A DNA stretch of 37,079 nucleotides, taken from the NCBI GenBank assembly GCA_001004665.1, contig LCRO01000005.1, forward strand, positions 1 to 37,079. The letters run 5' to 3'. This DNA comes from Candidatus Adlerbacteria bacterium GW2011_GWA1_54_10. GTDB taxonomy: Bacteria > Patescibacteriota > Minisyncoccia > Phycocordibacterales > SBAW01. Of this stretch, positions 3,112 to 28,887 are shown piece by piece. A program made the position numbers and the translations under genes. The stretch's first letter is position 1; every line of letters begins with the position of its first letter. Under the pieces are notes generated by a model that was not told the origin of the DNA, did no database searches, and was given only the letters and a program-made list of their open reading frames with translations.

Positions 3112-4668
3112 ATGAACAACCAATACGACGAATTGCCGGACCCCAAGAAAGCGTTCCTGAATACGGACTCGCCGCGCGGTTTATTGGCGCTTAATGCCAT
3201 CATCGCCGCGATTTATTTTTACGTGCTGGTGTTCCACTTTACGCCGGGTAATCCGATACTCTTTACCCTCCTTGTCATCGGGCAGATATTCAATCTCTGG
3301 CAGGTATTCACATTTATATACACGGTCTGGGATACGAGCTACGAGGCGCCGCGCAATCCCGCTTATCACGCCGCGGTTGACGTCTTTATCACCGTGGCGG
3401 GCGAGCCAACCGCGCTCGTGCGCGAGACCGTGCGCGCAGCCGTTGCTATGCGGCATCCGGCGAAAAGGGTATACATACTCAACGACGGGTACGTGACAAA
3501 AAAAGAAAACTGGCGAGACATGGAGGCGCTCGCGGCGCTCGAGGGAGTGCAGTGCATTACGCGCACGGTCCCTGGCGGAGCGAAGGCCGGCAACATCAAC
3601 AACGCACTTCGGCTTACGAGCTCGCCGCTTGTCGTCATCTTCGACGCGGACCATGTGCCTCATCCCGATTTTTTGGAGAAGACCGTGCCTTACTTTGCCG
3701 ACCCAAAAGTCGGCTTCGTGCAGACGCCACAGTTCTATAAAAATTTCGCGCAAAATTACTTGACGCAGGGCGCGTGGGAACAGCAAGAGCTTTTCTTCGG
3801 CCCCATTTGCAAGGGCAAGAACCGGCTCAACTCCACCATCATGTGCGGCACTAACATGGTTTTGCGCCGTGAGGCGCTGTTTGCAGTCGGCGGTATGTGC
3901 ACGGAATCCATTACCGAAGATTTCGTGACGGGCATGTTCATGCACGAGAAAGGTTATAAGAGCGTGTACCACGGAGAGGTTTTGGCGGAGGGACTCGCGC
4001 CGGAGGACTTTCTCTCCTACACGCGCCAGCAGTTCCGCTGGGCGCGCGGGTGCCTGGACGCCATCTTCCGCTACAATCCGATATTCCGCAGCGGACTTAC
4101 CTTCGCCCAGCGCATTCAATATCTGTCCTCCGCCAGCTTCTTTCTCTCCGGCTCCATCGTCCTGATGCATTCTATACTGCCCATAATATTTCTCTACACC
4201 GGCGCGGTACCCGTCATTATATCCGGCATGTTGCTTACGGCGGTATTCCTGCCTTACATATTCTTGACGCTGTACGCAATACAGCGCTCGAGCAACTTTA
4301 CCTTCACCTTTCCCTCCCTCGCGCTCGCAATGGGCGCCTTTACCATCCAGCTTAAGGCACTCTATGGGGCTCTACTGCGGCAAAAGACCTCCTTTACCGT
4401 GACTCCGAAGGAGGCTGTGACGGGCAACTTCGTAAGGCTCGCGAGTGTGCACATCATATATATCGCCGTCGCCGTCTTCGGCGTGCTGGTCGCGTTCGCG
4501 CGCGAGGGGCTTTCTGCGTCGCTCGTCAACAACCTTGCGTGGGTGATATTCTCCGTCGCGATATTCATACCCTTTATCCGCGCCTCTCTGCCTCCCAAAA
4601 AAGCCGCGGCATTGTCCGTGCCGGAAAAGGAGCGCGCCGAAAAACAAGCTTATGAGCGCCATTTTTAA
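3112..4668 (+). CDS. Processive family 2 beta-glycan synthase (cellulose synthase catalytic subunit BcsA/CelA-like), without a PilZ domain
   Basis: The D,D,D,QxxRW set is present: ILNDG, KAGNINNAL, VVIFDADHVP, FVQTPQFY, TEDF and QQFRWARG. It has N- and C-terminal TM helices. The protein ends about 30 aa after the last TM, so there is no room for a PilZ domain. Confidence 0.9.
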   Translation: MNNQYDELPDPKKAFLNTDSPRGLLALNAIIAAIYFYVLVFHFTPGNPILFTLLVIGQIFNLWQVFTFIYTVWDTSYEAPRNPAYHAAVDVFITVAGEPTALVRETVRAAVAMRHPAKRVYILNDGYVTKKENWRDMEALAALEGVQCITRTVPGGAKAGNINNALRLTSSPLVVIFDADHVPHPDFLEKTVPYFADPKVGFVQTPQFYKNFAQNYLTQGAWEQQELFFGPICKGKNRLNSTIMCGTNMVLRREALFAVGGMCTESITEDFVTGMFMHEKGYKSVYHGEVLAEGLAPEDFLSYTRQQFRWARGCLDAIFRYNPIFRSGLTFAQRIQYLSSASFFLSGSIVLMHSILPIIFLYTGAVPVIISGMLLTAVFLPYIFLTLYAIQRSSNFTFTFPSLALAMGAFTIQLKALYGALLRQKTSFTVTPKEAVTGNFVRLASVHIIYIAVAVFGVLVAFAREGLSASLVNNLAWVIFSVAIFIPFIRASLPPKKAAALSVPEKERAEKQAYERHF

Positions 4669-6226
4669 GTCGCCGCCCATCCTGCTGACTGCGCTTGTTA
4701 TATTCGCGGGCGGTCTTTCGCTTTTCTTCTTTTCCTCGCAGTCCCTGCGGCTGGACGAGGCACAAAGCCTTTGGCAAACCTCTCGCGCGCCGGTCGACAT
4801 CGCGACAATAGTCGCCAAGGACGTCCATGTGCCGCTTTATCATTTCCTGCTTTACGGATGGCGGCTCCTGTTCGGCGGCGGTGTAGAGACGGCGCGCATG
4901 CTTTCCCTGCTGTTTTATCTCCTATCGATACCCGCGCTATATGCACTGGGGAAGCTTGCCTACAACAAAGAGGCCGGGCTTTTTGCCGCGGCGCTTTTTG
5001 CGATCTCGCCTTTTATGAACTGGTATGGTAATGAGATACGCATGTATACGCTGTTCACACTGCTCGTGATATTGAATCAATACTTCTTTATAAAACTGTG
5101 GAAATCCGCGCGTCATACTGACAGCGCGTCGAGCGGAGCAGCGCTTTATGCCGTAACCGCCATTCTTGGAATGTATTCGCATTATTTCTTCTTTCTTGTC
5201 CTTGCAGGACAGGCTGTATTTTATTTTTTGCGGCGGCAGATTTTCCCGAGAGGCACACTGCGCAAACTAATAACAAGCTGGATGCTGGTCGCCCTAGCTC
5301 TCCTGCCATGGGGTTATTATGTGTATTCCATAGGCGAGGTGCAAAACCAGGAGCCGTTGCTGCAAGCTCCCACAAGTATTATCCTCTTTAACGCCTTTTC
5401 GCAATTCCTCTTCGGCTTTCAGGCCGATCACATAAACACCGTGTTTCTTTCGCTCTGGCCGATAGCCGTCATACTTGCGTTCCTCGCCTTACGCAAGCGC
5501 CACGGTGGCATCTCTCCGGAAACAGAATACTTTTTCCTAACAGTAATGCTCTCGACGGCGCTGGCGTTCGGGATAAGCCTGACATTCCATCCAGTGTTCA
5601 CCAGTCGTTATCTTATCCTAGCGGTACCTTCGCTTTACTTGCTCGTAACCAGCGTTTTTTCACTGTACCCGGAGCGCGCCGCGCGCTTTGCGCGCGGCGC
5701 GGCCCTCTTTGTAATGGCCGCGACGCTCATAATAGAGCTTTTCTCGCCCACGACACCGGTTAAAGAGAACTATCGCGAGGCTGCGCAGTACCTCACGGCA
5801 CATGCGGGAGGCGCCGACGTGATACTGCTCTCCGCCCCCTTTACCATTTATCCGATCGAATACTATTATCGCGGCGCGGCGCCCATCAGGACCTTGCCTC
5901 TGTGGAATCGCTACGCCTTCGGCCCCATACCTCCTTTCATCCCCGACAAATTCCCCGGCGAGGTAGCGCAAGCCACGCAAGCGAACCAAAACGCATGGAT
6001 CCTGCTCTCTTACGACCAGGGGTACCAGGAGGACATCAGACTTTATTTCGACACGCACTATCAAAGAACCGACGAGCGCGTTTTCTCGCCTGGCCTCACT
6101 CTTTACAAATACAAACTGCGCTACGACACCCCGCTTTCGGAGCGAAGCAAAAAATCCATCGAAAAAAGTCTAGGCGGGGACGTGCCAAAATTTGCGGAGC
6201 AAATTTTGGGGTTAAGGACTTTTTAA
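4652..6226 (+). CDS. GT-C fold membrane glycosyltransferase (GT39/ArnT/PMT_2-like)
   Basis: There are more than 10 predicted TM helices. A first-loop acidic motif, LRLDEAQSLW, is typical of the ArnT/PMT family. The C-terminal soluble domain is not recognised. It overlaps the upstream synthase gene by 17 nt. Confidence 0.75.
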   Translation: MSAIFKSPPILLTALVIFAGGLSLFFFSSQSLRLDEAQSLWQTSRAPVDIATIVAKDVHVPLYHFLLYGWRLLFGGGVETARMLSLLFYLLSIPALYALGKLAYNKEAGLFAAALFAISPFMNWYGNEIRMYTLFTLLVILNQYFFIKLWKSARHTDSASSGAALYAVTAILGMYSHYFFFLVLAGQAVFYFLRRQIFPRGTLRKLITSWMLVALALLPWGYYVYSIGEVQNQEPLLQAPTSIILFNAFSQFLFGFQADHINTVFLSLWPIAVILAFLALRKRHGGISPETEYFFLTVMLSTALAFGISLTFHPVFTSRYLILAVPSLYLLVTSVFSLYPERAARFARGAALFVMAATLIIELFSPTTPVKENYREAAQYLTAHAGGADVILLSAPFTIYPIEYYYRGAAPIRTLPLWNRYAFGPIPPFIPDKFPGEVAQATQANQNAWILLSYDQGYQEDIRLYFDTHYQRTDERVFSPGLTLYKYKLRYDTPLSERSKKSIEKSLGGDVPKFAEQILGLRTF

Positions 6227-25910: not shown

Positions 25911-26390
25911 ATGAAAAGAGGCTCAACAACATTTCTTCAAATAGTTATTGTGCTCATCGGCATTGTGGCGTTGGCCATCATGATCCGGTTCCCCTTGACC
26001 GAGGGGAGAGCCGCGAACTTAGACCTGTTTAGTATTTACTCTGATCCGTTCATCTTGTATGGGTACTTAGCGTCTATCGCATTTTTTGTTGCCCTGTATC
26101 AGGCGTTTAAATTACTCGGATATATCGGGCAAAATAAAGTATTCTCACTAGACTCTGTAAAGGCTTTAAGGACTATAAAATATTGTGCAATCGTCCTCGG
26201 CATCTTAATTGTGATGGCAGGACTATACATAAGGATATTTCATGCTGGAGATGACGATCCGGCGGGTTTTCTTGCCGTGTGTATTGTGACTACTTTTGTT
26301 TCTATCGTCATCGCCACTGCCACGGCTGTATTCGAGAAGCTCTTACAAACTGCCGTAGAGATGAAGTCGGAAAATGATTTAACGGTTTAA
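25911..26390 (+). CDS. DUF2975-like four-TM membrane protein
   Basis: Four hydrophobic helices, about 159 aa, followed by a 67-aa YozG-type HTH gene. This gene pairing is characteristic of DUF2975 loci. The family was recalled from memory, not searched. Confidence 0.6.
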   Translation: MKRGSTTFLQIVIVLIGIVALAIMIRFPLTEGRAANLDLFSIYSDPFILYGYLASIAFFVALYQAFKLLGYIGQNKVFSLDSVKALRTIKYCAIVLGILIVMAGLYIRIFHAGDDDPAGFLAVCIVTTFVSIVIATATAVFEKLLQTAVEMKSENDLTV

Positions 26391-26399
26391 AAAAATAAT

Positions 26400-26603
26400 A
26401 TGGCAATAATAATTAACATAGACGTGATGCTGGCAAAAAGAAAAATGAGCGTCACCGAGCTTGCCGAGAAAGTCGGAATCACCATGGCCAATATTTCCGT
26501 GTTGAAAAACGGCAAGGCAAAAGCGATCCGGTTATCGACCTTGGAGACGATTTGTAAGGCGTTGGAGTGTCAGCCCGGTGATATTTTAGAATATAAAAAG
26601 TAA
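26400..26603 (+). CDS. XRE/Cro-C1 family small HTH transcriptional regulator (YozG-like)
   Basis: MAIIINIDVMLAKRKMSVTELAEKVGITMANISVLKNGKAKAIRLSTLETICKALECQPGDILEY is a near-textbook example of this 67-aa family. Confidence 0.85.
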   Translation: MAIIINIDVMLAKRKMSVTELAEKVGITMANISVLKNGKAKAIRLSTLETICKALECQPGDILEYKK

Positions 26604-26645
26604 GAACAGGTGTTTGTCGGGCTCAAAAAGCCTTGCAGTTGCTGC

Positions 26646-26669
26646 GGTTCAAAGTTGGAAATCTGGCGG
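26646..26669 (+). repeat. Direct repeat copy A (GGTTCAAAGTTGGAAATCTGGCGG)
   Basis: Identical 24-mer to 28779-28802. Confidence 0.95.
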
Positions 26670-26846
26670 GCACGATCTCCGGAACTTTGAACCGAGGAAG
26701 TGGCTCAAATTCGAGGATCTTGATAAAAGTATACAGGAACTAAGAGCTATCTACAAAGTTCACCCTGAATGGTTTGAAGTGCCGAAACCAAAATCGAATA
26801 AAGGACAAAATGTAGCGGATTATCCAATAGATTAAAATTTTAATAA

Positions 26847-27254
26847 CTAATTTGCTGGTTCAAATCCTATAACGGAACTTCTTTTTAATTTGTATTTTTC
26901 AAATAGTTTATTATTTAAAAAATTGCTAACTATATATGCATTATGTATTTCTTTCATCAAATCATCGCGTAATTTGTCAATCTCATTTTGAGAAAGGCCT
27001 TTTCTTTTAAAAATGTCGTGAGCAAGTTTATTTCTTATCTTTCTTATATTATTAAATACACAAAATTCCGAGGAATTTATTTTTTGTGAGCAAAGCAGAA
27101 ATTTGTTTGCTGAATCGAATTTATCCATTCCGCTCTCATTTGCTAAAATACCCTCAATAATTGAAGAGTGGACAAAAACATTGCGATAACTACTTTTTAA
27201 GTATTTACCAAATTGTTGTTTAACCCAATCTTGGTGGCTTAAATTTTTAGCCAT
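26847..27254 (-). CDS. Small HEPN-motif protein (R-x4-H: IRNKLAHD)
   Basis: 135 aa, all-helical in appearance and AT-rich in codon usage. NNIRKIRNKLAHDIF carries the R-x4-H motif of HEPN RNase domains. No adjacent MNT or antitoxin-like ORF is visible. Confidence 0.5.
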   Translation of the reverse strand: MAKNLSHQDWVKQQFGKYLKSSYRNVFVHSSIIEGILANESGMDKFDSANKFLLCSQKINSSEFCVFNNIRKIRNKLAHDIFKRKGLSQNEIDKLRDDLMKEIHNAYIVSNFLNNKLFEKYKLKRSSVIGFEPAN

Positions 27255-27263
27255 ATTTTATTA

Positions 27264-27784
27264 TTATTCCGCTATCTCAAAAATCTTTTTCACAAATGCC
27301 GTGCGTGCGTAAAATGCACGGCTAATTGAGCCGTGCCCGGGACCTTTTGTGCGAGCTTGTATCCATTTCCCGTCTTTTCCTGTTAAAGCTTCGAACCCTT
27401 GCTTAACAAGTTTGTTGCGAATGAAATCATAATCAACTTTGATTTCTTTTATCAATTCATCGTCCTCTGCAAAATCCAAACTTGTAACTTTGAGTAATTT
27501 TGCTTCCTCGGAATTTGTCCCGTTCCACTCAACCGCGCAAAAGATAATGGTTTTGAGCTTTGCCCAACAATGGCTTTCAAAAAATGAATTGGTTAGCGTA
27601 GCCATAGCTGAAATTCAGGATAAGTTTCCTTGTCGTAAAATTGTAGATGTTTGTCGTCTTTCCAAACAAGCTCAGTCAAATTTTCGTAATCATCGCTGTA
27701 TCCTCGGCACACAACCAAAAGACGATTGAAAGGATTTAATCGCAGAATAAGTTTTGCAAAAAATGGTAAGAGTTGTATTTTCAT
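27264..27784 (-). pseudogene. MutH/Sau3AI-family-like GATC endonuclease homologue, split into two overlapping ORFs (63 aa and 113 aa) by a frameshift near 27593-27605
   Basis: The 113-aa ORF aligns by eye with the E. coli MutH C-terminal half: FFESHCWAKLK vs WETSHVRHKLK, IFCAVEW vs LWIPVEG, DYDFIRNKLVKQGFEALTGKDGKWIQARTKG vs [31 protein letters not shown], and SRAFYARTAFVKKIF vs PRGFYLKKNFTSALL. The upstream 63-aa ORF has DDYENLTELVWK in the position of the MutH D-x6-E-x-K region. The two frames overlap by 13 nt. Confidence 0.4.
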
Positions 27785-27786
27785 AA

Positions 27787-28557
27787 TTATTTGAGTCGAT
27801 AATTCCCTCGGCTGGTAAATTCGAGATAACCTTTGTCCCGCAATACTTGGAGTTGCTGTCGAATCTTATCTTTGATGTGGCGGTTATCAGGATGTTTTTT
27901 GCTCAAATCATTTCCAAATGTATACATCTCATCAAGCGAAAATTCTTTGTGACCTATTTTCTCAACGCACAACATGGTATCTAATAGCCAACCTTTTGCA
28001 CTGATTTCTTTTTCATCACGCAGGAAAAGAGTTTTTTCCCAGTCCGCGAGAACTTTTTCCTTTGCTTCAGTCTGTCCGTCTCTAACAAAGAATATCTTCC
28101 CCGTTTGTGGAATATGATTGAGTAGTATATTGCAACCAATCCAGCCCGCCCGTCTGGCAGTTGGCGAGAGCGGTTTTCGTTTTTCAATTATTTCTGGAAC
28201 AAAAAAATGTTTTGGAATGACAAGAAAATTCAGGACTTCAAAACTTTTCAAGTCGTAATTCAGCAGGAAAAAATTGGGATTGTTGCTACTTTGTAATCGT
28301 TCAATCATTGTGCGATATGCACCGTCCACAATTTTTACGCCAACGCTATTCTGCTTACTTTTTAATTCATACTCCTCTTTACAGTTCGAGCAATAAAAAT
28401 CTGCGACTGGCTGATTATTTGGATACTTATCAATATCCAAGTGTCCGCAGTTCGGACAAAAAATTGCACCATCAACCCACGCCTCACTTAAAATGCGAAT
28501 CTTCTGTGATTGGCTTGTGTAATTATCCGCAAGTTGTGTATCAAATGATAACTTCAT
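27787..28557 (-). CDS. DpnI-family methyl-directed (G-m6A-TC) type IIM restriction endonuclease
   Basis: It is colinear over its full length (256 aa) with S. pneumoniae DpnI as I recall it: SQSQKIRILSEAWV, CPNCG, PVADFYCSNCKEEYELKSK, DGAYRTMIERLQSSNNPNFF, RKPLSPTARRAGWIGCNI, and the C-terminal winged helix HIKDKIRQQLQVLRDKGYLEF. Confidence 0.9.
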   Translation of the reverse strand: MKLSFDTQLADNYTSQSQKIRILSEAWVDGAIFCPNCGHLDIDKYPNNQPVADFYCSNCKEEYELKSKQNSVGVKIVDGAYRTMIERLQSSNNPNFFLLNYDLKSFEVLNFLVIPKHFFVPEIIEKRKPLSPTARRAGWIGCNILLNHIPQTGKIFFVRDGQTEAKEKVLADWEKTLFLRDEKEISAKGWLLDTMLCVEKIGHKEFSLDEMYTFGNDLSKKHPDNRHIKDKIRQQLQVLRDKGYLEFTSRGNYRLK

Positions 28558-28759
28558 AATTTAATCCGTTGCTTTTGTCCCACTCGCCTTTATTAACACT
28601 AACGCGTCGTCCGGCATGAACCGTAAAGCCGCCATTCGAAAGAAGATAAGGCGGATCAGCAAAAACCATATCAACCGAATTTTCTGGAAGTTTAGCTAAC
28701 AACTCCAAGCAATCTGCTTGGTAGAGTTTGAATTTTGGTTTTTCGTAATATGGTTGCAT
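28541..28759 (-). pseudogene. 5' stub (about 63 codons) of a DpnA/M2.DpnII-like N6-adenine DNA methyltransferase
   Basis: KPKFKLYQADCLELLAKLPENSVDMVFADPPYLLSNGGFTVHAGRRVSVNKGEWDKS matches the DpnA N-terminus including DPPY motif IV. Similarity ends where the DpnI start codon overlaps it. The SAM-binding motif I region is absent. Confidence 0.75.
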
Positions 28760-28778: not shown

Positions 28779-28802
28779 GGTTCAAAGTTGGAAATCTGGC
28801 GG
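28779..28802 (+). repeat. Direct repeat copy B (GGTTCAAAGTTGGAAATCTGGCGG), overlapping the last 6 nt of tRNA-Ser
   Basis: Identical 24-mer to 26646-26669. Positions 28797-28802 are the CCGCCA 3' end of the tRNA on the minus strand. Confidence 0.95.
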
Positions 28803-28887
28803 AGGAGGTGGGACTTGAACCCACAAGGGAGTTTTTGGCCCCCTACGGATTAGCAATCCGCTGGCTTACCATTCGCCGCACTCCTCC
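28797..28887 (-). tRNA. tRNA-Ser (anticodon GCT), long variable arm, CCA encoded
   Basis: The reverse complement runs GGAGGAG-TG-...-GCGGA-TTGCTAA-TCCGT, then a long variable arm (GGGGGCCAAAAACTCCCT), then GTGGG-TTCAAGT-CCCAC-CTCCTCC-G-CCA. Confidence 0.9.

What the first reader, a model, noticed from the sequence alone, without database searches (positions are those of the whole stretch)
27787..28759. A methylase stub abutting a methyl-dependent DpnI may be a fossil of a switch in restriction-modification polarity
The 72-codon ORF at 28541-28759 matches the N-terminus of DpnA-type GATC m6A methyltransferases through the DPPY motif. It loses similarity exactly where the DpnI-homologue start codon (28557) overlaps it, and everything needed for SAM binding is missing. 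A working GATC m6A methylase would be lethal alongside DpnI, which cleaves G-m6A-TC. The arrangement is what one expects if a DpnI gene replaced the 3' four-fifths of a methylase, and possibly its partner nuclease. This is a sequence-level snapshot of a host flipping from methylating GATC to attacking methylated GATC.
Basis: partly seen in the sequence, partly recalled or inferred. Interest (0 to 1): 0.65.

Follow-up and report, generated by a model that had tools for sequence, protein, structure and literature searches.

The report
DpnI cassette replaced a GATC restriction-modification pair
In this ultra-small groundwater bacterium, a gene pair encoding a DpnI-type nuclease (which cuts methylated GATC) sits where the middle of a GATC methylase-plus-nuclease system used to be; broken stubs of both old genes remain, and the same swap recurs across many related bacteria.

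Summary
It can be extended.

- **Stub:** the 72-codon ORF (28759..28541, minus strand) is the first 66 codons of a DpnA-type beta-class N6-adenine methylase. It includes DPPY and lacks motif I.
- **Junctions:** intact versions of the locus exist in about 60 Patescibacteria genomes: a roughly 270-aa methylase followed by a 206-aa MutH/Sau3AI-like nuclease. DNA homology to these stops at 28560 and resumes at 27592.
- **Insert:** the 967 nt between the junctions is exactly an intact DpnI homologue plus a conserved 63-aa partner ORF.
the 113-aa ORF (27605..27264) is the C-terminal 107 residues of the old nuclease. Its catalytic half is gone.
- **Specificity:** the closest characterised methylase is the DpnA-like second methylase of the DpnII-type GATC system on pSRQ700 (52% identity, against 43-44% for CcrM-type). 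GATC specificity of the lost system is therefore well supported but still inferred.
- **Not a one-off:** stub-DpnI arrangements recur in at least 15 lineages with nested breakpoints. Arms and cassette have discordant histories, which implies recombination.

The closest precedents are the pneumococcal DpnI/DpnII cassettes and Neisseria drg replacing dam. This is a new member of a known kind.

The parts
28797..28887 (-). tRNA-Ser(GCT). Its 3' end points at the island, and the methylase start codon lies 37 nt downstream.
   Evidence: ARAGORN. The same tRNA-Ser(GCT)-plus-spacer context occurs in intact-type loci L017, L022 and L070 and in DpnI-type L091.
28779..28802 (.). Copy 1 of a perfect 24-nt direct repeat: the last 6 nt of the tRNA plus 18 nt of spacer.
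   Evidence: the repeat finder.
28541..28759 (-). Methylase stub ORF (72 codons). Codons 1-66 (28759..28560) come from a DpnA-type beta-class N6-adenine methylase. The last 6 codons and the stop are read out of frame from the start of the DpnI gene.
28646..28657 (-). Motif IV (DPPY, stub residues 35-38).
   Evidence: Translation and alignments.
27593..28559 (-). The replacing segment (967 nt): DpnI gene plus 63-aa ORF. Intact alleles carry about 901 nt here, encoding methylase codons 67-271 and nuclease codons 1-~99.
   Evidence: blastn against about 60 intact loci stops at 28560 and resumes at 27592/27589/27587.
27787..28557 (-). Intact DpnI homologue (256 aa), a type IIM nuclease predicted to cut G-m6A-TC.
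   Evidence: Residue roles come from PMC3424567 and PMC4117772.
27593..27784 (-). Conserved 63-aa partner ORF of DpnI (o63), function unknown. Its stop codon is the right-hand end of the cassette.
   Evidence: - It follows DpnI by 4-14 nt in about 30 of 80 DpnI loci.
- 66 protein clusters, all about 63 aa, with no Pfam match.
- The AF2 model has pLDDT 83 and no fold match.
27264..27605 (-). Relic of the MutH/Sau3AI-like restriction nuclease. This 113-aa ORF carries the C-terminal 107 residues (homology from 27592 downstream). The N-terminal half with the E48 / N62 / E67-x-K69 catalytic motif is missing.
26847..27254 (-). 135-aa ORF inside the island, with an R-x4-H (RNKLAH) motif and a weak HEPN-type match. 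It is not part of the replaced genes.
   Evidence: PADLOC CARF_HEPN 2.4e-4. No homologue in the other loci.
26614..26835 (+). Conserved distal end of the island (the 'o73' region). It is shared with intact-type loci, and conservation ends at ...CCGCCA.
26646..26669 (.). Copy 2 of the 24-nt direct repeat.

Best explanation
**Ancestral state (shown by comparison).** A small low-GC island lay next to tRNA-Ser. It carried a two-gene type II restriction-modification system: a roughly 270-aa DpnA-type beta-class N6-adenine methylase, overlapped by 4 nt by a 206-aa MutH/Sau3AI-like nuclease.

**Event (shown).** The stretch from methylase codon 67 to nuclease codon ~99 (about 900 bp) was substituted by a 967-bp two-gene module, dpnI plus a 63-codon ORF.
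- Its left end lies 2 nt before the dpnI ATG.
- Its right end is the stop codon of the 63-codon ORF.
- One substitution therefore destroyed the methylase (motifs after DPPY, including the SAM-binding motif I) and the old nuclease (its catalytic half). It installed an intact nuclease that retains every DpnI catalytic, zinc, methyl-pocket and winged-helix residue.

**Consequence (inferred).** The cell went from methylating GATC and cutting unmethylated GATC to leaving GATC unmethylated and cutting G-m6A-TC DNA. A single replacement that removes M and R together is the only viable route. M with DpnI is suicidal, and R without M is suicidal.

**Expression (inferred).** dpnI now sits behind the old methylase start region. 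Its ATG lies inside the stub ORF, 17 nt before the stub stop, so it is probably transcribed from the old methylase signals and may be translationally coupled to them.

**Spread (partly shown).**
- The DpnI-type allele is not private to this genome. It occurs with the same 3' junction and a nested series of 5' breakpoints in many Patescibacteria.
- Its arms are mosaics that are closest to intact alleles.
- The allele has therefore been exchanged or converted by homologous recombination through the retained gene fragments, much like the pneumococcal DpnI/DpnII cassettes.
For: **Intact locus.**
- 61 loci carry a methylase of at least 250 matched codons (mostly 260-293 aa), and 28 loci carry a full-length MutH-like nuclease, 27 of them next to an intact methylase.
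- L037 and L070 are read in full.
- Pfam N6_N4_Mtase 1e-58; MutH 1.3e-9; NCBIfam Sau3AI 3e-14 and MutH 1.6e-12; PDB MutH 1.8e-6.

**Breakpoints.**
- Homology to intact loci ends at 28560 and resumes at 27592 in dozens of loci.

**Same context in both allele types.** tRNA-Ser(GCT), the spacer and the distal 'o73' region are shared.

**DpnI is intact.**

**GATC assignment.**
- The best annotated relative is the second methylase of pSRQ700. That plasmid carries a D12/Dam-class methylase, an N6_N4 methylase and a DpnII-family nuclease.
- Identity is 52% over 257 aa. CcrM-type hits reach 43-44%.
- The partner nuclease belongs to the MutH/Sau3AI family. All characterised members known to me act on GATC (own knowledge).

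**Recurrence.**
- At least 15 of 80 DpnI loci have stubs ending at methylase codons ~32 to ~181.
- Eight loci share the 3' junction.

**Recombination.**
- The window's arms are 91.4% and 87.6% identical to intact L017, but 84.5% and 74.8% to L091.
- WIN against L113 is 89% identical in the cassette but only 74% and 78% in the arms.
- pN/pS of the arms stays low. WIN against L017 shows 4 nonsynonymous and 11 synonymous changes in the stub, and 9 and 23 in the nuclease relic.
- Intact alleles co-occur in the same groundwater samples: loose ends at 27589 read into MINP.ELKA.

**Other methylases.** No other methylase motif IV occurs in any ORF of the window.
Against: - **Specificity not measured.** Neither the specificity of the lost methylase nor that of the nuclease has been measured. 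52% identity to a GATC enzyme does not prove GATC, and CcrM (GANTC) is the best solved-structure match.
- **Site-avoidance statistics do not discriminate.** GATC O/E is 0.64-0.77 in R-M-type loci, DpnI-type loci and the window alike. GANTC is somewhat low (0.78) in the M+R set, together with many other palindromes.
- **Variant catalytic motif.** The nuclease family has an invariant Asn where MutH has catalytic Asp70.
- **A possible co-occurrence.** One MAG holds both a related intact methylase (L088, divergent subfamily, no adjacent nuclease) and a DpnI (L094) on different contigs. This may reflect binning or a different specificity.
- **Limited genome coverage.** Only 37 kb of the genome could be checked for a second GATC methylase.
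- **Origin of the junction unresolved.** The junction-proximal 90 nt of the 5' arm is nearly identical to intact L017 rather than to other DpnI-type alleles.
  - It is therefore open whether the shared junction reflects one event plus arm conversion, or repeated events.
- **Survival of the first recipient unexplained.** How a fully methylated recipient would survive the first expression of DpnI is not known.
Confidence: 0.8

Rival explanations
1. The replacement is real, but the lost system did not act on GATC (for example GANTC, like CcrM/HinfI). In that case DpnI landing there is incidental and no 'polarity flip' occurred.
For: - CcrM is the best solved-structure and NCBIfam match of the intact methylase.
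- GANTC O/E is 0.78 in M+R loci against 0.92 in the other sets.
- Intact beta-class methylases can sit directly beside DpnI (L110/L115).
- DpnI plus o63 also occurs in many contexts with no methylase remnant.
Against: - The methylase is closer to the DpnA-like enzyme of a DpnII-type system (52%) than to CcrM-type enzymes (43-44%). It also lacks CcrM's C-terminal domain (about 270 aa against 366).
- The partner nuclease is in the MutH/Sau3AI family.
- The GANTC dip is not specific, because TCGA, ACGT, CTNAG and GTAC drop more in the same set.
- A replacement that removes M and R in one step is what selection would demand only if M conflicts with DpnI.
Confidence: 0.13
2. The 72-aa and 113-aa ORFs are not mere fossils. 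They are retained under selection for their own function: as promoter, leader or translational-coupling elements for dpnI, or as homology arms that keep the locus switchable.
For: - Stub ORFs stay open in nearly all DpnI-type loci.
- pN/pS between stubs is 0.21, against 0.17 between intact genes.
- More than 100 clusters of 63-126-aa stub proteins exist.
- The dpnI ATG lies inside the stub ORF.
Against: - Breakpoints vary from codon ~32 to ~181, and some loci keep no detectable stub.
- Older stubs (L097, L102, L144, L163) show roughly equal nonsynonymous and synonymous counts against their nearest intact allele.
- L113 has lost the stub start codon, and nuclease relics are deleted or frameshifted in L078 and L113.
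- Low pN/pS is equally explained by recent derivation from, or conversion by, intact alleles.
Confidence: 0.15
3. The arrangement is an assembly or binning chimera that joins a methylase fragment from one organism to a DpnI gene from another.
For: The arms are multi-copy in the community. Depth over the arms is 5-100 times that of the DpnI core at 85% likeness, which is a situation prone to misassembly.
Against: - The same gene order appears in 23 contigs from independent assemblies and samples.
- A single Logan contig spans both junctions with 2 differences (record 13).
- The same junction is present in other species' genomes.
Confidence: 0.02

Closest known systems
Pneumococcal DpnI / DpnII alternative cassettes (Lacks et al. 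1986; reviewed in PMC3812788, PMC3573125)
   Same: - Mutually exclusive alleles occupy one chromosomal position. One allele methylates GATC and restricts unmethylated GATC. The other encodes DpnI and restricts methylated GATC.
- A DpnA-type methylase is involved.
- Exchange by homologous recombination in naturally transformable bacteria is the likely route. The window itself carries ComF-like and type IV pilus genes.
- DpnI is followed by a small second gene.
   Different: - The methylating allele here has one methylase and a MutH/Sau3AI-like nuclease, not DpnM + DpnA + DpnII-family nuclease.
- The homology arms lie inside the M and R coding sequences, so truncated gene stubs remain.
- The small partner gene gives no match to the Pfam DpnD-PcfM family.
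- The hosts are Patescibacteria, and the locus is a tRNA-flanked island.
Neisseria 'dam-replacing gene' drg (NmeBII) at the dam locus (PMC516771, PMC4269198; Pfam PF06044 'Dam-replacing family')
   Same: - A low-GC DpnI-family gene sits at the locus of a GATC adenine methylase.
- dam+/drg- and dam-/drg+ are mutually exclusive.
- The gene spread by horizontal exchange, and some copies are frameshifted. L113 shows the same here.
   Different: - In Neisseria the gene displaced is an orphan alpha-class Dam. Here it is a beta-class methylase together with its cognate nuclease.
- Here the insert is a two-gene module.
LlaDCHI (pSRQ700) / DpnII-type three-gene GATC systems
   Same: The second methylase is the closest annotated relative of the intact Patescibacteria methylase (52% over 257 aa) and of the stub (56% over 61 aa).
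   Different: The nuclease family differs (DpnII PF04556 against MutH-like), and the Patescibacteria locus has no Dam-class first methylase.
MutH / Sau3AI nuclease family
   Same: The 206-aa partner nuclease matches MutH over almost its full length and has E...E-x-K in register. The window's 113-aa ORF aligns to MutH residues ~113-204.
   Different: It is paired with a methylase as a restriction-modification system, not with MutL/MutS. It has an invariant Asn at the position of Asp70 and a shorter C-terminus, so the equivalent of Tyr212 could not be assigned.

Membership tests
R.DpnI (type IIM, PF06044 + PF17726) | N-terminal PD-(D/E)XK domain with E25, D53, E64, K66 | tested here: met
   All four residues are identical at the same numbering in the full-length alignment to 4esj. 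Roles come from mutagenesis in PMC3424567.
R.DpnI (type IIM, PF06044 + PF17726) | Zinc site formed by two CxxC motifs | tested here: met
   C34-x2-C37 and C56-x2-C59 are present.
R.DpnI (type IIM, PF06044 + PF17726) | Methyl-binding cleft and GATC contacts (N48, R126, L129, R135, W138, G140) | tested here: met
   The sequence ...RKPLSPTARRAGWIGC... aligns to RKPLAPTANRAGWIGC. Roles come from PMC4117772.
R.DpnI (type IIM, PF06044 + PF17726) | C-terminal winged-helix domain with K229 and R231 | tested here: met
   DpnI_C 7.6e-32. The sequence ...DKIRQQLQVLRDK... is conserved.
R.DpnI (type IIM, PF06044 + PF17726) | Cleaves only N6-methylated GATC | not testable with these tools
   Needs an enzyme assay or a dam+/dam- toxicity test.
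DpnA-type beta-class N6-adenine methylase (the stub) | N-terminal motif IV (DPPY) and family-level similarity | tested here: met
   - DPPY at residues 35-38.
- 56% identity over 61 aa to the pSRQ700 DpnA-like methylase.
- 74-93% identity to intact Patescibacteria methylases.
DpnA-type beta-class N6-adenine methylase (the stub) | C-terminal SAM-binding motif I (FxGxG) and target-recognition region | tested here: not met
   The ORF ends after residue 72 and homology ends at residue 66. Motif I lies at residues 220-229 of intact relatives. The stub is a fragment, not a functional member.
DpnA-type beta-class N6-adenine methylase (intact relatives) | Methylates the adenine of GATC | tested here: inconclusive
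   The closest annotated relative lies in a DpnII-type system. Site-avoidance statistics do not decide the question. There is no methylome.
MutH/Sau3AI nuclease (the 113-aa ORF) | Catalytic E / D(N) / E-x-K motif in the N-terminal half | tested here: not met
   The window retains only the part after residue ~99. The motif (E48, N62, E67, K69) is invariant in 28 intact relatives.
MutH/Sau3AI nuclease (the 113-aa ORF) | C-terminal DNA-binding half | tested here: met
   91-93% identical to the C-terminus of intact 206-aa proteins. These match MutH at 1.8e-6 and Pfam MutH at 1.3e-9. The ORF alone matches MutH residues 113-204 at E 0.057.
DpnI/DpnII-style alternative cassettes | Two mutually exclusive gene sets occupy the same chromosomal site between shared flanks | tested here: met
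   The same tRNA-Ser(GCT), spacer and distal region hold M+R in L017, L022 and L070, and stub-DpnI-o63-relic in the window and L091.
DpnI/DpnII-style alternative cassettes | Exchange between strains by homologous recombination | tested here: inconclusive
   Arms and cassette have discordant similarities, and intact alleles co-occur in the same samples. No within-population dimorphism was shown and no transfer was observed.

The most novel reading that the evidence does not exclude
**Dimorphic locus.** Patescibacteria carry a widespread, recombination-driven dimorphic locus. One allele methylates GATC and restricts unmethylated GATC. The other is unmethylated and restricts methylated GATC.
- The truncated M and R fragments act as the homology arms that let lineages flip polarity repeatedly.
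- Such a locus would shape phage defence and gene flow among these naturally competent, episymbiotic bacteria.

**Link to mismatch repair.** The methylating allele pairs a DpnA-like methylase with a MutH-sized nuclease. It would be a living example of the kind of restriction-modification system from which the Dam/MutH strand-discrimination pair is thought to derive.

**The 63-aa partner.** It might moderate DpnI during establishment in a still-methylated cell.
Probability: 0.35. Interest if true: 0.65.

Novelty: new member of a known kind. Interest (0 to 1): 0.5.

Why it matters
**What is already known.** Replacement of a GATC methylase by a DpnI-family nuclease has been described in Neisseria, and an alternative-cassette system is known in pneumococcus.

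**What this locus adds.**
- The same evolutionary solution has arisen in the Candidate Phyla Radiation, against a different methylating system (DpnA-like methylase plus MutH-like nuclease).
- Nucleotide-exact junctions are visible, and relics of both lost genes survive.
- The arrangement recurs in many lineages with nested breakpoints and mosaic arms.

**Why that is useful.**
- It gives a natural series for studying how cells survive a switch between mutually lethal epigenetic defence states.
- It points to a conserved, uncharacterised 63-aa partner of DpnI.
- It identifies a compact MutH-like restriction enzyme family worth characterising.

**Practical point.** The more than 100 'hypothetical' 63-126-aa proteins in databases that match methylase N-termini are mostly such stubs and should be annotated as pseudogene fragments.

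Tried and rejected
- **Pfam on the stub alone** gave only sub-threshold hits. Its identity came from PDB, homologues and plasmid searches.
- **The homologue search for the stub** returned only short proteins. This first suggested a conserved small protein. The genome-locus scan then showed that most relatives are full-length methylases, so the short-only list reflects how candidates are collected, plus the abundance of DpnI-type alleles.
- **Site-avoidance statistics** (GATC and GANTC against all 4-mer and interrupted palindromes, by allele type) are inconclusive.
- **Assigning the MutH Tyr212 equivalent** (the methyl sensor) in the Patescibacteria nuclease failed, because the alignment is ambiguous at the shorter C-terminus.
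- **The 63-aa partner:** no Pfam, NCBIfam or PADLOC match. The AF2 model is confident (pLDDT 83), but the best Foldseek hit in the PDB has E 1.4.
- **Direct repeats bracketing the island in other loci:** only the window has the 24-nt perfect repeat.
- **Wider synteny:** flanking housekeeping genes are not shared with the intact-type loci. Only the island is shared.
- **The MAG holding both L088 (intact related methylase) and L094 (DpnI):** the two contigs share no sequence, so they are not alleles of one site.
- **Reads:** only assembled contigs were available. Strain-level dimorphism and methylation could not be assessed.
- **Literature:** a search on restriction-modification and GATC methylation in Patescibacteria listed no paper describing this locus.
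Full report
**1. What is in the window**

On the minus strand the order is as follows.

| Feature | Coordinates (minus strand) |
|---|---|
| tRNA-Ser(GCT) | 28887..28797 |
| 72-codon ORF | 28759..28541 |
| 256-codon ORF | 28557..27787 |
| 63-codon ORF | 27784..27593 |
| 113-codon ORF | 27605..27264 |
| 135-codon ORF | 27254..26847 |

- The region from about 25.7 to 28.8 kb has G+C of 0.25-0.44, against 0.5-0.65 in the flanks.
- The genome is a groundwater Patescibacteria (CPR) assembly (GCA_001004725.1).
- The identical DpnI protein occurs with the same neighbours on 23 independently assembled contigs.

**2. The DpnI homologue is complete**

- It matches Pfam DpnI (2.7e-81) and DpnI_C (7.6e-32), PADLOC 'type II methyl-directed restriction enzyme' (5.9e-117) and the solved R.DpnI structure 4esj (1.8e-88, residues 1-254 against 4-255).
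- In that alignment these residues are all conserved:
  - the catalytic residues E25, D53, E64 and K66;
  - both CxxC zinc motifs;
  - the guanine and methyl-cleft residues N48, R126, L129, R135, W138 and G140;
  - the winged-helix residues K229 and R231.
- Their roles are taken from PMC3424567 and PMC4117772.

**3. The 72-codon ORF is a methylase stub**

- It carries DPPY at residues 35-38.
- It matches the N-termini of beta-class N6/N4 methylases in the PDB: CcrM 4.7e-7, RsrI, and a protein deposited as 'DpnA' at 2.5e-4.
- A scan of one genome per species found at least 559 loci encoding a relative.
- In the best 80 loci, similarity to the window's ORF nearly always covers residues 2-66 and then stops.
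- Extending those reading frames shows that about 60 of the 80 encode full-length proteins of 260-293 aa.
- L037 and L070, read in full, encode a 270/271-aa protein with Pfam N6_N4_Mtase at 1e-58 and motif I (DPFTGSSTTG) at residues 220-229.
- The window's ORF is therefore the first 66 codons of such a gene, followed by 6 out-of-frame codons read from the start of dpnI.

**4. The partner nuclease and its relic**

- In the intact loci the methylase is overlapped by 4 nt by a 206-aa ORF. That ORF matches Pfam MutH (1.3e-9), NCBIfam Sau3AI (3e-14) and MutH (1.6e-12), and solved MutH (1.8e-6 over residues 14-194).
- Across 28 intact copies, E48, P61-N62 and E67-L-K69 are invariant. The Asn sits where MutH has Asp70.
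- The window's 113-aa ORF is 91-93% identical to the last 107 residues of this protein. On its own it aligns to MutH residues 113-204. The catalytic half is absent.

**5. The breakpoints are exact**

- blastn of the window against the loci shows homology to intact alleles ending at 28560 and resuming at 27592 (27589 or 27587 in some loci), in dozens of loci.
- The 967 nt in between are dpnI plus the 63-codon ORF, from 2 nt before the dpnI ATG to the stop codon of the small ORF. Intact alleles have about 901 nt there.
- 5' junction alignment: intact ...AACGGATTAAAGAAAGATTTTGAA... against window ...AACGGATTAAATTATGAAGTTATC....
- 3' junction alignment: the stop codon of the small ORF is followed immediately by ...CATTTTTTGAAAGCCATTGTTGGGC..., which encodes SFFESHCWA of the nuclease.
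- An independent Logan contig spans 27546-28688 with 2 differences. Both junctions are therefore real.

**6. Same site, two alleles**

- Intact-type loci L017, L022 and L070 have the same tRNA-Ser(GCT) and a conserved 35-nt spacer upstream of the methylase, as do the window and DpnI-type L091.
- The same conserved roughly 190-nt region lies at the far end of the island, and its conservation ends at ...CCGCCA.
- Housekeeping flanks are not shared. What is shared is a small mobile island.
- In the window this island is bracketed by a perfect 24-nt direct repeat made of the tRNA's last 6 nt plus 18 nt of spacer (26646-26669 and 28779-28802).

**7. Was the lost system GATC-specific?**

- A translated search of annotated plasmids puts pSRQ700 of Lactococcus lactis first, at 52% identity over 257 aa.
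  - There the hit is the second methylase of a three-gene unit: a D12/Dam-class methylase, an N6_N4 methylase and a DpnII-family nuclease.
  - This is the DpnII-type GATC architecture. From my own knowledge it is the LlaDCHI system and the gene is the DpnA homologue.
- A second such unit on a Staphylococcus plasmid scores 48.5%.
- CcrM-type genes of alpha-proteobacteria score 43-44%.
- The stub alone is 56% identical over 61 aa to the pSRQ700 enzyme.
- Together with the MutH/Sau3AI family of the partner nuclease, this makes G-m6A-TC the most likely product. It remains an inference.
- Word statistics did not help:
  - GATC is under-represented to the same degree in R-M-type loci (0.67-0.77), DpnI-type loci (0.64, the lowest palindrome there) and the window (0.72).
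  - GANTC is modestly low (0.78) in M+R loci, along with several unrelated palindromes.
- No other ORF in the 37-kb window carries a methylase motif IV.

**8. The insert is a two-gene module**

- Among 80 DpnI loci from other genomes (63-91% protein identity), the 63-aa ORF follows DpnI by 4-14 nt in about 30, in many unrelated contexts.
- It forms a family of 66 clusters, all about 63 aa, unnamed and without a Pfam domain.
- An AlphaFold model is confident (pLDDT 83; beta-alpha-beta-beta-alpha-beta) but matches no solved fold (best E 1.4).
- It gave no match to the Pfam family of pneumococcal DpnD. Its function is unknown.

**9. The replacement recurs**

- At least 15 DpnI loci have a methylase stub directly upstream. 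The stubs end at methylase codons of about 32, 42, 42, 56, 62, 66, 67 (four loci, including the window), 74, 77, 78, 78, 96, 97, 126 and 181. Three more loci keep only 15-30-nt traces.
- Eight loci share the window's 3' junction. In two others the nuclease relic starts later, at codons 115 and 164.
- This nested pattern fits one or a few founding replacements followed by deletions that trim the dead DNA. Repeated events cannot be excluded.

**10. Arms and cassette have different histories**

- Every stub and nuclease relic is closest in nucleotide sequence to an intact allele, not to another relic.
- The window's arms are 91.4% (5') and 87.6% (3') identical to intact L017. They are 84.5% and 74.8% identical to L091, whose DpnI is 90% identical in protein.
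- Window against L113 is 89% identical in the cassette but 74% and 78% in the arms. Window against L143 is 70% in the cassette but 84% in the 5' arm.
- The junction-proximal 90 nt of the 5' arm differs from L017 at only 3-4 positions.
- Synonymous sites between alleles are saturated, yet pN/pS stays low: 0.21 for stub against stub and 0.17 for intact against intact.
- Against the nearest intact allele, pooled pN/pS is 0.16 for stubs against 0.11 for intact genes. The excess comes from a few old stubs (L097, L102, L144, L163).
- The window's own stub shows 4 nonsynonymous and 11 synonymous changes, and its nuclease relic 9 and 23.
- The window's relics are therefore young relative to allele divergence, or are refreshed by conversion from intact alleles.
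- Intact alleles at 85% identity or more are abundant in the same groundwater samples. Contigs leave the window sequence exactly at 27589 and read on into the intact nuclease.
- The window also encodes ComF-like and type IV pilus proteins, consistent with natural transformation. That link is an inference.

**11. Mechanism**

- *Shown:* one substitution removed the C-terminal four-fifths of the methylase and the catalytic half of its nuclease, and installed an intact DpnI gene plus a partner ORF behind the old methylase start.
- *Inferred:*
  - The cell changed from methylating and protecting GATC to attacking methylated GATC.
  - Removing M and R together is required, because M with DpnI and R without M are each lethal.
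  - dpnI is probably expressed from the old methylase signals. The promoter scan found nothing convincing, and the gene may be co-transcribed with the tRNA.
  - The retained fragments serve as homology arms for exchange.
- *Unexplained:* how a fully methylated recipient survives the first DpnI expression.

**12. Comparison and novelty**

- The phenomenon is known from the pneumococcal DpnI/DpnII cassettes (PMC3812788, PMC3573125). It is also known from Neisseria, where drg, a low-GC DpnI-family gene, occupies the dam locus, with dam+/drg- and dam-/drg+ mutually exclusive (PMC516771, PMC4269198).
- The differences here are these:
  - the methylating system differs (a single DpnA-like methylase plus a MutH-like nuclease);
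  - the arms lie inside coding sequences;
  - the small partner gene differs;
  - the host group is new;
  - a breakpoint series is visible.
- A search on restriction-modification and GATC methylation in Patescibacteria listed no paper describing this locus.
- I file it as a new member of a known kind, with moderate interest.

Noticed in passing
window 26646-26669 and 28779-28802: A perfect 24-nt direct repeat (the last 6 nt of tRNA-Ser, CCGCCA, plus 18 nt of spacer) brackets the 2.1-kb low-GC island that holds the stub, DpnI, o63, the nuclease relic and the 135-aa ORF. It looks like att-type duplication, yet no integrase lies between the copies. Related loci lack an exact repeat.
   Followed up: partly
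window 26847-27254 (-): A 135-aa ORF with an R-x4-H motif (RNKLAH) and a weak PADLOC CARF_HEPN match (2.4e-4). It may be a small HEPN-type RNase. It has no homologue in the other loci fetched.
   Followed up: partly
window 27593-27784 (-); L091-L170: A conserved 63-aa protein family (invariant C26, G28, Y29, W41, D43, D44, W61) is tightly linked downstream of DpnI homologues in many contexts. It has no domain or fold match.
   Followed up: yes
window 25911-26603 (+): A DUF2975 membrane protein followed by an HTH_26 regulator, also in low-GC DNA, just beyond the distal repeat.
   Followed up: no
L110 3213-4949 and L115 (same layout): An intact 263-aa beta-class methylase (41-42% identical to the L037 methylase and to the pSRQ700 DpnA-like enzyme) directly abuts DpnI+o63. 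If that DpnI is active, this methylase cannot be GATC-specific.
   Followed up: partly
L127 6014-7582 (-); L139 3385-4020; L100; L121: A 522-aa protein fuses a LexA DNA-binding domain and S24 peptidase to a C5 cytosine methylase. Stand-alone LexA-like genes lie directly upstream of DpnI in several loci.
   Followed up: no
L037 6807-7427 and 27 other intact loci: The MutH-like restriction nuclease family has an invariant Pro-Asn where PD-(D/E)XK enzymes, including MutH, have the catalytic Asp. It is nevertheless under strong purifying selection (pN/pS 0.14 in the N-terminal half).
   Followed up: partly
L113 (= L038) 3745-5288: A decaying DpnI-type locus. The stub start codon is lost, DpnI is split by a frameshift near codon 42, and the nuclease relic is frameshifted.
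   Followed up: partly
L091-L170 pooled; window: GATC is the most under-represented 4-nt palindrome around DpnI genes (O/E 0.64). It is also low in the window (0.72, 97 sites against 134 expected).
   Followed up: partly
L011-L090: The methylase-nuclease pair sits immediately downstream of a tRNA gene (Ser with four different anticodons, Gln, Val) in 8 of 60 intact loci. Truncated loci L137/L028 (Lys) and L027 (Ser) show the same placement. The pair is far more conserved (73-93% protein identity in the methylase N-terminus across candidate phyla) than the surrounding genes, which suggests frequent horizontal transfer.
   Followed up: partly
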